Below are positions 10,776 through 57,270 of a DNA stretch of 64,000 nucleotides, one piece after another (the stretch's first letter is position 1; each line of letters opens with the position of its first letter). The stretch is from contig NC_085846.1 in NCBI RefSeq assembly GCF_035594765.1, forward strand, positions 101,481,190 through 101,545,189. The letters are read 5' to 3'. The notes under the pieces were generated by a model, which was not told the origin of the DNA, did no database searches, and was given only the letters and a program-made list of their open reading frames with translations. Position numbers and translations under genes: made by a program. Source of the stretch: Anolis carolinensis (Eukaryota).

Positions 10776-10910
10776 CAATGGTTCTCAACCTGGGGTCCTT
10801 AGATGTTTTTGGCTTTCAACTCCCAGAAATCCTAACAGCTGGTAAACCAGCTGGGATTTCTGGGAGTTGTAGGCCAAAAACATCTTGGGACCCCAGGTTG
10901 AGAACCACTA
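10776..10910. mobile_element. ~135-bp palindromic hAT MITE (family C1)
   Basis: caatggttctcaacctggggtc ... gaccccaggttgagaaccacta; same family as 19499, 26768 and 54714. Confidence 0.9.
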
Positions 10911-19464: not shown

Positions 19465-19822
19465 ACACCAGAAAACAAGCTTGTTCCACCTTCTATATCA
19501 GTGGTTCTCAACTTGTGGGTCCCCAGATGTTTCGGCCTACAACTCCCAGAAGTCTCAGCCAGTTTACCAGCTGTTAAGAGTTCTGGGAGTAGTAGGCCAA
19601 AACATCTGGGGACCCACAAGTTGAGAATCAGTGTTCAATATGATATCCCTTCAAATATTTAAAGATAATGATCATGTCACCTTGCATTCTTCTCCAAGCT
19701 CAACATATCCAACTCCCTAAATTATTCCTCATAAGGTTTGCTTTCCAAACATTTGATCATCTTGGCTCCCCTTCTCCTGACATATTCTATGTTGTCAATA
19801 TCCTTCTTGAACTGTGTTACCT
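19465..19822 (-). mobile_element. CR1 fragment interrupted by a hAT MITE
   Basis: 'gaaaacaagcttgttccaccttctatat|gatatcccttcaaatattt..tcttctccaagctcaacatatcc' is colinear with the other CR1 copies. Confidence 0.8.
19499..19633. mobile_element. hAT MITE, family C1
   Basis: cagtggttctcaac ... gttgagaatcagtg; 8-bp TSD ttctatat/ttcaatat (7/8). Confidence 0.92.
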
Positions 19823-52560: not shown

Positions 52561-52786
52561 CAGTTTGTCATAAAGCTAGTTCTGTCTGATGCTTATAAGC
52601 AACTGCAAATGAGCAATAACTGAAAGGTTAGTTTTAAAGTGATACCAAGCACTGCACACTTCTTCTAACATTTGTTTTGGAATATCACACCTTACATGCT
52701 TCTTAATACACAGAGCACATGTGAATATGTCTTTTGACTTGCATGACCAACCTATACGAGTATTAAGTATTGCAAACATGCCCACA

Positions 52787-54023
52787 CAGGGCCGGCCGGA
52801 GATATTTTTTAATGGGAAGCGGGGGTGCTGAAAAGCGCCCCCGCCACCGGCCCCGCCTCCCGCGCCCTGGCCCCGCCTCCCACGCTGCGTGGGAGGCGGG
52901 GCCAGGGCGATTAGTGAGGGGGGCGGGGCCACAGTTGCCCCCCCCCCAGCGTGCCCTGGCCCCGCCTCCCACGCAGCGTGGGAGGCGGGGCCAGGGCACG
53001 CTGGGCGGGGGGGCGGGGCCAGAGTTGGCCCCGCCTCCCACGCTACTCCCGCTTGCCCGTCTGGCCTTTCCTAGCAGGCCAGAAAGCAGCGGAGGTCCCT
53101 CCAGGCCGCGATTGCGGCCTGGAGGGACCTCCGCTGCTTTCTGGCCTGCTAGGAAAGGCCAGACGGGCGAGCGGGAGTAGCGGAGGCGGAGCCAGCTCTG
53201 ACGCTGCTCCCCCCCCCGCCCAGCGTGCCTTGGCCCTGCTAGAGTGTTGCTAGAGTGGTGCCTTGGCCCTGCCAGGGACCTCCGCTGCTTTCTGGCCTGC
53301 TAGGAAGGCCAGACGGGCGAGCGGGAGTAGCGTGGAGTAGCGTGGGAGTAGCATGGGAGGCGGAGCCAGCTCTGACGCCGCTCCCCCCCCGCCCAGCGTG
53401 CCTTGGCCCTGCCTCCCACGCAGCGTGGGAGGCGGGGCCAAGGCACGCTGGGCGGGGGGGGAGCGGCGTCAGAGCTGGCTCCGCCTCCCACGCTACTCCC
53501 GCTCGCCCGTCTGGCCTTCCTAGCAGGCCAGAAAGCAGCGGAGGTCCCTCCAGGCCGCAATCGCGGCCTGGAGGGACCTCCGCTGCTTTCTGGCCTGCTA
53601 GGAAGGCCAGACGGGCGAGCGGGAGTAGCGTGGGAGGCGGAGCCAGCTCTGACGCCGCTCCCCCCCCGCCCAGCGTGCCTTGGCCCTGCCTCCCACGCAG
53701 CGTGGGAGGCGGGGCCAGGGCACGCTGGGCGGGGGGGGCGGCGCCAGAGCTGGCCCCGCCTCCCACGCTACTCCTGCTCGCCCGTCTGGCCTTTTCTAGC
53801 TGGCCAGACTGCAGCGGAGGTCCCTGTAGGCCGCGATTGCGGCCTGCAGGGACCTCCGCTGCAGTCTGGCCAGCTAGAAAAGGCCAGACGGGCCAGGGCG
53901 CACTGGGCGGGAGGCGGGGCACCGTCAGGGCGGTGCCCCGCCTCCCGCCCAGCCTGACGGCGCCCCCCCGGGCCTGCGCCCGAGGCGGCGGCGTCAGGGG
54001 CCTCAATAGTGGGGCCGGCCCTG
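52787..54023. mobile_element. GC/CpG-rich non-autonomous hAT element (1237 bp) with an internal palindrome array
   Basis: Perfect 11-bp TIR CAGGGCCGGCC; perfect 8-bp TSD tgcccaca (52779-52786, 54024-54031). Confidence 0.95.
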
Positions 54024-54713
54024 TGCCCACATCATTATAAAGCGTTTAGATGTATCCTATGTGATTATCATTGTGCAGACAGAGAATGTTTTCTTTTGCT
54101 GACACCATGATTTCCTCTCTTAGAATTTCTGTTTAAAAAACATTTCCACATTTTAAAATATGCCAGGTCAGCATGCATACAGGATGGTTTTTCAGAGCTA
54201 GATTGGACAGAGGGAAAATATTGGCCACACTTGGAAGGAACTCTGATGTTTCCATGCAAAGATACAAGTTTTTTCTTGTCTTAAAGGAATTCCCTTGAGC
54301 GAAGGAAAAATCAAAGATGAACAGAGAGATCCTGCAATGGAGCCAGGGCAGTGGGACTCTGTGATTACAGATATAAACAAATAGTGCCATTGGTTAGCAT
54401 TTCCATGGCACTTTATAGATAGTAAAGCCTGTAGATGCTCATTTATTTCTTGCAAAAAATCCGCCCCATTCTTTAGACAAATTTGTGGCATGGCCAGTCT
54501 GTATATTGATTTCATTCTCATACTGTACAAAGAGTATCATTTAGAAAGCGAATTCAGAAGGAAGGAGTGCAAAAATTGGAAAAATAAATATCCATGGGGG
54601 ATACGTTGCAAGACTTCATTAAACTCTGGTTAATGATGAATCCTGTTAAACAAATTATTTGTGATGGAAGCATACCACAGAGTTGTGCTGGAGGACTTGG
54701 AAAATGCCTAGAT

Positions 54714-54982
54714 CAGTGGTTCTCACCCTGTGGGTCCCCAGGTGTTTTGGCCTATAACTCCCAGAAATCCTAGCCAGTTTACCAGCTGTTAGGGTTTCTG
54801 GGAGTTGAAGACCAAAATATCTGAGGACCCACAGGTTGAGAACCACCAGCTTAGAAAGAACCTTTGGTCCTCCAGGTGTTTTGGACTTCAACTCCCAGAA
54901 ATTCCAGCCAGTTTACCAGCTGTTAAGAATTGTGGGAGCTGAAGTCCAAAACATTTGGAGGGCCAAAGGTTGGGAACCACTG
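54714..54982. mobile_element. C1 hAT MITE (54714-54848) plus a left-truncated sister MITE (~54859-54982)
   Basis: TSD gcctagat/gcttagaa (6/8); the second ends aggttgggaaccactg; another partial sister at ~31655-31770. Confidence 0.88.
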
Positions 54983-55961
54983 TTCTAGGGCATCAGGCAG
55001 TTGCTTAACTGTGGAATAATTTTAAGTGTGTTGTTGTTTGAGACATACTATAACTTAATATGGGGGCAAGGAACCAATAATTCATTGCAATGAGTAGGAA
55101 AGAGATTTGAGAACATTATGAAAAAAAACTTGATAATTGAAACCAGGCCAGTGCATAGCTGCAGGAATATAATTTATGCCAAAAAGGGCATATTAAAACT
55201 GCCACATCTCAGTTGTAGGAAAGAGCAAAGAGCAGTTTAAGAGATACCTGAAGGACTTTAATGAACACAGACACACGCATCTTCCCCACCATATCTTTTT
55301 TCCAATTGTTTTCCAAAATTAATGTAGCAAATAGCATCCAATGGGGAACTAGGGATTGGAACTGTGACACAGAGAGAAGAGAAAGAAACCCCCTTCCCCG
55401 TGACATCGCTGTGATATACAACAGGGTCACAAAGCAAGCATTTCCACTCCTGAAACTGGAACAGAGCAGAGGAGAACATGGCCAAGATGATATTTTAAAA
55501 TAGTGGGGTATAAAATTCTATTGAAGTTAAATGAGGCAATACAATTGGTTCAATGTAAATAGTAATTATGGGAAAAGTGTTTTTCATTGCACTTGAGGTA
55601 GCTTCATGTGGCCCAGGACAAACTATATGGAATACAGTTGTCCATCCACATCTACAGTTTTGACTCTTGCAGATTTGTTTATTTGCAGATTTGATTGAAA
55701 ATGTTCTAGATCCTCCAGTATGACCCTATGGTCAATTTCCTCAGGTCATGATGGGGGACATGGAAATTGGTAGAGAGAACACCTCTCTAGGAATCTCTAG
55801 ATCCTCCAATGCAATTTCTAGCAGAAGTTGCCCATAAAGTCATGCTGGAAGATCTAGAAATTCCTAAAGAAGTTTTCAAGTAAAAATGAATAGCAATTCC
55901 TTTATTTTTCACTTTCATGGAGGACTTGTGCCCCTAACCCCCAGTGAATATAGAGTGCTGA

Positions 55962-56558
55962 CAGGGCCGGCCCAAGAAAATTTTAAATATTAAGCGGGGG
56001 GGAAATTGCACACACAAACCGCCCCGCTCTGCGGGAGGTGTGGCCAGACCTGGCCCCGCCTCCCGTGCCCTGGCCCCGCCTCCTGCGTTGCTCGCCCTGT
56101 CCCCGCCTCTCGCGCAGCGTGGGAGGCGGGGCCAGGGTGCGCGGTCGGGAGGCGGGGCTCCGCCCAGACGGGGCCCCACCTCCCGCCCCGTGTGCCTTGG
56201 CCCAGGCCAGCCAGCCAGGAAGCGGCGGGAGTCTCTTCAGACTGCAGCGATCGCGGCCTGGAGGGACCTCCGCTGCAGTCTGGCCAGCTGGAAAAGGCCA
56301 GACGGGCGAGGGTGAGCAGCGCGGGAGGCGGGGCCAGGGGCAAACCCTGGCCCCGCCTCCCGCGCTGCTCACCCTGACCCCGCCTCTCGCACAGCGTGAG
56401 AGGTGGGGCCAGGGCACGCGGGGCGGGAGGCGGGGCTCCGCCCAGACAAGGCCCCGCCTCCCGCCCTGCGCGCCCTTGCCCAGCTGGCCTCCACGGCGCC
56501 CCCGGGACCATGCACCCGAAGCGGGCGCTTCAGTGGCCTCCGCGTTGGGCCGGCCCTG
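55962..56558. mobile_element. GC/CpG-rich non-autonomous hAT element (597 bp), related to 52787-54023
   Basis: Perfect 14-bp TIR CAGGGCCGGCCCAA; perfect TSD agtgctga (55954-55961, 56559-56566). Confidence 0.95.
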
Positions 56559-57270
56559 AGTGCTGATTATACAAAACTTTCTCTTCCAAAAGAGTGGGGA
56601 GTTCAGGTAGAACAGCAGAACTTTATCATCATTGCCCACTACCCACCATGTGCCATGTTTGGTGACCACCTCACTTTGCCCAAATAGCAGGGCCAATCCC
56701 ATATCTTTTTGTGTCCTTATAACCCTTTGTCCCATATTTGTTTTACTAGTAGCTTTATTTTCCTTATTTTTCTGTGAGGATTATGCCCAAGAGCTTTGTT
56801 TATGTCTCAGAAGTGGTGCAAATGATTAAGTGTTGGGTAAACACAGTTATCTCTGAAATGTATAAATAGAGATGTGTATCTTCTAGCTTTTGCATTCCAT
56901 TAACTGAAGACATGGGTTTACTTATGAGCTCCAACCCGTGTGTACAACCTTATTAGGGAAGGCAGGCAGGCTGGAGCTGCCATGTGCTCAGGATTTCATC
57001 AGTACTTTAGAACTGTTTGTCTGGAAAGCAGACTTAAAAAAAAAATATTGTGTCGTGCTCTTAAAGCAGGATTTGTGGAGAATAATGCTTTCAAGATCCA
57101 GTAACACCTGGAATAATAGGATCTGAAAGAACATTCTGGGCCTGCAATTATTTTATTAAAAGCAGTAGCAGACTTCCACTTCGTTCTTTGGGGAAAAAAA
57201 TCAGAAACATTATTCCCAGAAACTCCCTTCGTGAAATGCATGTTGAGGTTCTTTCACATTTATTGACAAG

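What the first reader, a model, noticed from the sequence alone, without database searches (positions are those of the whole stretch)
53055..53892. Private variants mirrored in both arms of each hairpin (concerted correction)
Seen: the three B hairpins differ from each other but are each internally symmetric. B1 has cctttcctagcagg/cctgctaggaaagg with aaagcagc/gctgcttt. B2 carries the same 1-bp deletion in both arms (ccttcctag/ctaggaagg). B3 has ccttttctagctgg/ccagctagaaaagg with actgcagc/gctgcagt, and its right arm closely matches the sister element at ~56265-56306. Template-switch correction of quasi-palindromes is an established mechanism. Inference: arms are homogenised against each other, which could also slow CpG decay.
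Basis: partly seen in the sequence, partly recalled or inferred. Interest (0 to 1): 0.7.

Follow-up and report, generated by a model that had tools for sequence, protein, structure and literature searches.

The report
Inherited hairpin variants in lizard transposon
The mirror-image changes in these DNA hairpins are inherited variants of a jumping-gene family with over 1,600 copies, new mutations are almost never mirrored, and the symmetry likely comes from rare backwards-copying accidents rather than continual repair.

Summary
The three hairpins and their mirrored motifs are real. They lie inside a 1,237-bp non-autonomous hAT-type element (52787-54023, 8-bp target duplication, at least 1,620 copies, absent from one other individual's allele). 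The variants are not private: every arm is a family allele, and B2's deletion occurs at 108 places, nearly always on one arm. Across 399 hairpins from 176 copies, 0 of 47 rare variants are mirrored, and no arm is closer to its partner than to another copy's arm. B3's own mismatch is mirrored in 0 of 93 hairpins genome-wide. CpG decay is the same in arms and ends (0.80% vs 0.72%, P=0.78). Ongoing correction is therefore not supported. Mirror copying does happen, but rarely and in long tracts: old subfamily markers sit on both arms, whole lopsided hairpins are copied backwards, and three copies hold inverted copies of their own flanking DNA. B3's symmetry is likely ancestral; B2's likely came from one such inverted copy. 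The mechanism (template switching) is known. The scan described similar hAT hairpin arrays elsewhere in this genome.

The parts
52787..54023 (+). Non-autonomous hAT-type element, 1,237 bp, interior almost wholly hairpins
   Evidence: 11-bp TIRs and identical 8-bp flanking duplication; empty allele in run X2, filled junctions in X15 and X18; 88% of bases paired in DNA fold
52779..52786 (+). Left target-site duplication
   Evidence: identical to 54024-54031
54024..54031 (+). Right target-site duplication
   Evidence: one copy remains in the empty allele
52787..52797 (+). 5' terminal inverted repeat
   Evidence: first 16 nt occur 1,620 times in G000
54013..54023 (-). 3' terminal inverted repeat
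52863..53012 (.). A-type hairpins A1 (52863-52909) and A2 (52938-53012)
53041..53182 (.). Hairpin B1: common family allele a1 on both arms, loop GATT; outer marker at 53054 unmirrored
53234..53273 (.). Repair scar: deletion joining an A arm to a B arm, with a short filler and a repeated 15-mer
   Evidence: unique in G000 (1 match); not covered by contigs of 4 other runs, so unconfirmed outside the assembly
53274..53359 (.). Partial third arm carrying the same 1-bp deletion, followed by a slipped 11-mer (3.5 copies) with an unmirrored CpG change at 53353
   Evidence: 100% direct match to 53572-53633 and inverted match to 53488-53549
53344..53500 (.). Hairpin A3 with extended arms
53383..53738 (.). 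Hairpin B2 and its 176-nt extended palindrome: deletion allele a6 on both arms (53508-53558, 53563-53613), loop AATC; includes A4 (53660-53738)
53780..53893 (.). Terminal hairpin B3: alleles a15 and a8, one T:G mismatch 7 nt from the loop
53903..53952 (.). Subterminal hairpin C
   Evidence: centre found in 152 of 206 elements
55962..56558 (+). Sister element of the same TIR group with its own 8-bp duplication; one full B arm (56253-56304) and a perfect GATC centre

Best explanation
The three hairpins are built from arm alleles inherited in a young, high-copy non-autonomous hAT family, and their mirror symmetry likely arose by rare long-tract template switches that copy a block backwards, then spread by transposition, not by routine mismatch correction. 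Shown: arm alleles are shared across copies; lopsided arm pairs persist in dozens of copies; units are gained, lost and inverted as whole blocks; inverted copying has happened in place, because it carried host flank into the element. Inferred: hairpins stall or break replication or gap repair and the nascent strand re-primes on a nearby arm (MMBIR/FoSTeS-like); a switch in a founder copy fixes a marker on both arms of a whole subfamily. For this copy: B3's symmetric motifs are likely the ancestral state; B2's left arm is likely an inverted copy of a deletion-bearing right arm, perhaps made in the event that left the scar; B1 is simply the commonest allele of its lineage on both sides, possibly joined by a deletion between direct repeats.
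For: Alleles shared: 854 arms, 169 sequences, the window's a1, a6, a15, a8 in 31, 33, 12, 16 elements. Persistent lopsided pairs: a5>a3 46, a0<a7 41, a2<a4 24, a6>a2 22, a10>a9 17; a7, a9, a10 never paired with themselves. Identical arms 65 of 369 vs 66-67 by within-element shuffling; internal hairpins 47 of 233 vs 66-72. Rare variants: 0 of 47 mirrored, 7 repeated in same orientation. Alignment-free: 10 of 567 private clusters mirrored (4 elements), 28 direct (9 elements). Genome-wide B3 marker: 0 of 93 mirrored, 0 loop flips (95% upper bound 3.2%). Marker split: older markers both:one arm 236:6, 126:15, 121:7, 108:13; younger 0:82, 0:40, 1:41, 2:69, 6:68. Whole-hairpin inversions with asymmetry kept (a2<a4 vs a4>a2; a9<a10 in L283). 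Flank-tagged events: L244, 104 nt of flank plus about 260 nt of 5' end at 100%; L205, 3' end plus 5 nt of its duplication; L288, 222 nt of flank. The a8|a8 subfamily is the most diverged (0.6-0.8% vs 0.15-0.17% for this copy's group).
Against: All three hairpins of this copy are more symmetric than those of its closest relatives, where B1 is usually a19|a1 and B3 a15|a9 (11 vs 4). All four combinations of those two sites occur, so some events recurred. A few cases fit local arm-to-arm copying: a5|a5 (1 of 47 terminal hairpins), a4|a4, a14|a14, one private mirrored change (L094), 2 of 24 loop-only flips in a6|a2, and 11 a0|a0 hairpins with a perfect GATC centre. 'Old' and 'young' for markers is inferred from subfamily spread, not dated. 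The family is so young (about 0.25% private change) that slow correction would leave few marks. Reversion to the partner's allele is invisible in the 93-hairpin census.
Confidence: 0.8

Rival explanations
1. Classic quasi-palindrome correction: each hairpin is continually homogenised arm to arm, mirroring private variants and slowing CpG loss.
For: This copy's three hairpins are near-perfect; old markers are mirrored; a handful of single-hairpin conversions and loop flips exist; the mechanism is documented (PMC5453318 passages; PMC8604942 abstract).
Against: 0 of 47 rare variants mirrored; 0 of 93 at a site 7 nt from the loop; partner never nearest; CpG transitions 33 of 4,116 in arms vs 22 of 3,064 in ends, P=0.78, non-CpG 0.24% vs 0.25%. 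The GATT/AATC loop itself is likely an unrepaired CpG decay of GATC and stands in 366 of 399 hairpins.
Confidence: 0.08
2. The symmetric combinations in this copy come mainly from exchange between different family members (inter-element recombination or template jumps during gap repair), not from copying within the element.
For: All four a19/a1 x a8/a9 combinations exist; 5' and 3' end types are mixed among copies; frequent inter-element recombination is reported for anole hATs (PMC3014272 abstract and passages).
Against: Exchange between elements in the same orientation cannot put a right-arm allele on a left arm unless a donor already has it; flank-tagged events are self-copying; B2's left side matches this element's own downstream block over 176 nt.
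Confidence: 0.07
3. Selection keeps the arms matched because perfect hairpins or their repeated motifs help transposition.
For: Median 64% of bases in hairpins across 86 position-sampled elements; old markers mirrored.
Against: Lopsided founders amplified well (46 and 41 hairpins); elements with the same ends carry unrelated hairpins or none; lengths range 188 to about 2,000 bp.
Confidence: 0.04
4. Assembly or polishing artefact that equalised the arms.
For: The unique scar was not covered by contigs of four runs, two of which carry the insertion.
Against: The same assembly resolves identical lopsided pairs at dozens of loci; both junctions are matched by independent runs; this copy keeps several mismatches.
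Confidence: 0.02

Closest known systems
Orphan non-autonomous hAT-N6/N7/N8_AC of Anolis carolinensis (PMC3014272; abstract, Table 1 and passages seen, supplements not read)
   Same: 8-bp duplication, short TIR of nearly the same sequence, no coding capacity, no matching autonomous element found, young and high-copy
   Different: TIR differs at position 4 (G here, A in Table 1); none of the six 'CAGGG' strings in that text is this TIR; the text has no mention of palindromes, hairpins or tandem repeats
Quasi-palindrome template switching (Ripley model; four-point model, PMC5453318 passages; PMC8604942 abstract)
   Same: Backwards copying between inverted arms gives mirrored changes and spacer inversion
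   Different: Here short local correction and loop-only flips are rare; the visible events are blocks of hundreds of bases, sometimes running into host flank
Galileo / Foldback-type elements of Drosophila (PMC3573991 passages) and FoSTeST Pack-TIRs (PMC8277862 passages)
   Same: Internally repetitive inverted structure, expansion and contraction of units, recruitment of new sequence by inverted duplication, template switching in or near TIR elements
   Different: Those are P-family or long-TIR elements; this one has 11-bp hAT-type TIRs and an interior of alternating local hairpins, not two long terminal arms

Membership tests
hAT superfamily, non-autonomous | 8-bp target-site duplication | tested here: met
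   window; exact in 199 of 206 complete elements
hAT superfamily, non-autonomous | Short terminal inverted repeats | tested here: met
   11 bp
hAT superfamily, non-autonomous | Mobile, dispersed, polymorphic | tested here: met
   1,620 5' ends; empty allele in X2
hAT superfamily, non-autonomous | No transposase gene | tested here: met
   no tblastn hit of one genome hAT transposase in the window or 251 loci; ORFs are GC-rich palindrome read-through
hAT superfamily, non-autonomous | Autonomous partner with the same TIR | tested here: inconclusive
   none of the top 30 hAT-domain loci has the TIR within 1.5 kb; only 150 of 1,206 candidates were scored
hAT-N6/N7/N8_AC | TIR sequence as in Table 1 of PMC3014272 | tested here: not met
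   one fixed difference at position 4
hAT-N6/N7/N8_AC | Internal sequence similarity to the consensus | not testable with these tools
   no Repbase or Dfam consensus available
Ongoing quasi-palindrome correction | New variants mirrored or erased on the partner arm | tested here: not met
   0 of 47; 0 of 93; 10 of 567 clusters, mostly from block copies
Ongoing quasi-palindrome correction | Arms cluster by hairpin | tested here: not met
   0 of 798 arms nearer their partner; the 52-column tree is mostly unresolved and adds little
Ongoing quasi-palindrome correction | Spacer (loop) inversion between fixed arms | tested here: inconclusive
   2 of 24 in a6|a2; 0 of 41 in a0|a7; 0 of 93 in B3 type
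Ongoing quasi-palindrome correction | Slower mutation or CpG loss in arms | tested here: not met
   P=0.78 (CpG) and P=0.74 (non-CpG)
Long-tract inverted template switching (MMBIR/FoSTeS-like) | Inverted copy of nearby sequence inserted in place, little or no microhomology | tested here: met
   L244, L205, L288
Long-tract inverted template switching (MMBIR/FoSTeS-like) | Dependence on fork stalling or a given polymerase | not testable with these tools
   needs experiments

The most novel reading that the evidence does not exclude
This hAT family is a germline 'palindrome factory': its hairpin interiors trigger backwards copying so often that about 2 in 100 inserted copies have already pulled their own host flank inside in inverted form, and subfamilies with the same ends have built unrelated nested palindromes. 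It would give some 1,600 dated, polymorphic natural replicates for measuring the rate and tract length of inverted template switching, against point mutation, in a vertebrate germline.
Probability: 0.45. Interest if true: 0.55.

Novelty: new member of a known kind. Interest (0 to 1): 0.3.

Why it matters
The family gives a usable negative: long, GC-rich, near-perfect hairpins in a vertebrate are not kept matched copy by copy and are not shielded from CpG decay. It also warns that mirrored differences seen in one copy can be inherited founder events. Because insertions are young and polymorphic, the family could yield a direct rate for fold-back rearrangement.

Tried and rejected
Search for an autonomous partner: hAT dimerisation domain search and TIR scan, nothing linked. 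Rfam scan of 52700-56700: no match. ORFs in the element: palindrome artefacts. Tree of 29 arm alleles: 20 of 26 inner branches open, not used as evidence. Laying four runs on the scar: no cover at 53244-53271; short-read contigs often drop GC-rich palindromes, so no conclusion. Symmetric loops as proof of fold-back: AATT is also a plain CpG transition, and GATC is likely the ancestral centre (older subfamilies and the sister element), so only the 11 a0|a0 GATC hairpins are suggestive. Earlier findings by sequence: unrelated. Literature: seven searches listed no paper on this family's hairpin interior; subscription journals, Repbase and Dfam were not searchable, and supplements of PMC3014272 were not read and may hold the consensus.

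Full report
What is there. The finding lies inside a GC-rich element at 52787-54023 with 11-bp terminal inverted repeats and an identical 8-bp duplication on both sides; a second element with the same TIR and its own duplication lies at 55962-56558. The first 16 nt occur 1,620 times in G000. A contig of run X2 joins 52778 directly to 54024, the empty allele, while X15 and X18 run from both flanks into the element. It is a young, polymorphic, non-autonomous hAT-type insertion. The host looks like an anole lizard: the TIR is one base from hAT-N6/7/8_AC and a nearby 134-nt repeat resembles hAT-N1_AC in Table 1 of PMC3014272.

The observation. The three B hairpins and the quoted motifs are present. 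They are not fully symmetric: B3 keeps a T:G mismatch 7 nt from the loop and B1 one at 53054. The B2 deletion is also on a third, partial arm.

Sample. I collected 219 5' ends, of which 206 gave complete elements and 13 were dropped; 199 have exact duplications. Of the 206, 86 were taken by position alone, 62 by this copy's 3' end, and the rest by B1, B2 or B3 similarity (groups overlap). 176 elements have B arms, giving 399 complete hairpins.

The variants are not private. The window's four arm alleles occur in 31, 33, 12 and 16 elements. The B2 deletion has 108 exact matches; among the 100 listed only one pair lies in the same hairpin.

Arms are identical in 70 of 399 hairpins, and in 14 of 100 in the position sample. 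Shuffling arms within elements gives as many identical pairs as observed (65 vs 66-67) and more for internal hairpins (47 vs 66-72). Summed arm distance over all hairpins is below the shuffle (882 vs about 1,140), but this reflects terminal versus internal types and vanishes for internal hairpins. Of 47 variants found in at most three elements none is mirrored; 7 are repeated, all in the same orientation. No arm of 798 is closer to its partner than to an arm of another element. An alignment-free count finds 10 of 567 private clusters mirrored, in 4 elements, against 28 repeated directly; this copy's six private clusters are all unmirrored. Genome-wide, the B3 mismatch is mirrored in 0 of 93 hairpins and all 93 keep the same loop direction. 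In 138 elements of six subfamilies (34 unassigned left out), CpG transitions are 33 of 4,116 in arms and 22 of 3,064 in the ends (P=0.78); non-CpG rates are also equal.

What does happen. Lopsided pairs are inherited whole (a5>a3 46 times, a0<a7 41, a6>a2 22) and are inverted whole, loop included. Markers split in two: widespread ones are on both arms (236:6, 126:15, 121:7), narrower ones on one (0:82, 0:40, 2:69). This fits rare symmetrising events in founders that are then multiplied by transposition (inference). Direct proof of backwards copying in place comes from copies holding their own flank: L244 has 104 nt of upstream flank plus about 260 nt of its 5' end inverted inside it at 100% identity, private changes included; L205 has its 3' end plus 5 nt of its duplication. 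Both are among the 86 position-sampled elements. L288, picked for an opposite-strand pair and so not part of a rate, mirrors 222 nt of flank; L285 repeats 394 nt of flank directly. No control family was measured.

This copy. B3: the subfamily with symmetric a8|a8 ends is the most diverged and the sister arm is close to a8, so the order a8|a8, a15|a8, a15|a9, a10|a9 is the likely one and asymmetry has grown with time. B2: relatives carry the deletion on a right arm just before the terminal hairpin; here that block is present directly twice and once inverted, beside a scar unique in the genome, which suggests one complex repair event. B1: relatives usually have a19|a1; this copy and L012 have a1|a1 with the a19-linked outer marker (2 of 13's tally), by conversion from the partner, by a deletion between direct repeats, or by a transition.

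Against my reading. This copy is more symmetric than its relatives at all three hairpins. A few local conversions and loop flips exist, about 2-3% of hairpins. The family is young, so the tests bound the rate of correction and do not exclude it. The scar could not be confirmed in other runs.

Comparison. The mechanism class is known (PMC5453318 passages; PMC8604942 abstract; PMC3573991 and PMC8277862 passages). PMC3014272 (abstract, passages, Table 1) describes the nearest families and inter-element recombination but not hairpins. Seven searches listed no description of this interior. Earlier scan notes describe similar arrays in this genome; I could not check that they are the same family. 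Verdict: real hairpins, inherited variants, rare block-wise mirror copying, no continual correction and no CpG protection.

Noticed in passing
L244 (G000:C1:81587605 onward), L205, L288: Elements that hold or end in an inverted copy of their own terminus plus host flank (104, 5 and 222 nt): fold-back copying after insertion.
   Followed up: yes
L091, L213, L231 and others: Elements with the same 5' end carry unrelated hairpin units, with near-perfect palindromes up to 248 nt long in L231 and longer nested ones; the family seems to build new palindromes repeatedly.
   Followed up: partly
L210 (G000:C1:49982612-49985615): Two neighbouring elements each lack a matching duplication but share one 8-mer in inverted arrangement; possibly an inversion by alternative transposition.
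   Followed up: no
L285 (G000:C4:192892400-192896600): Direct duplication of part of an element together with 394 nt of flank.
   Followed up: partly
window 54727-54980: Two 134-nt units resembling hAT-N1_AC by their terminal sequence.
   Followed up: no
G000, many places (L252-L281): A very abundant hAT transposase with open frames of 830-842 aa and near-identical domain scores in most of 150 scored places: a recently active family, not linked to this TIR.
   Followed up: partly
window 10779-10907 and 19505-19627: Two other imperfect 56-60 nt inverted repeats.
   Followed up: no
family-wide: CpG transitions are only about three times the non-CpG rate in both arms and ends, lower than I recall for fully methylated vertebrate repeats.
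   Followed up: no
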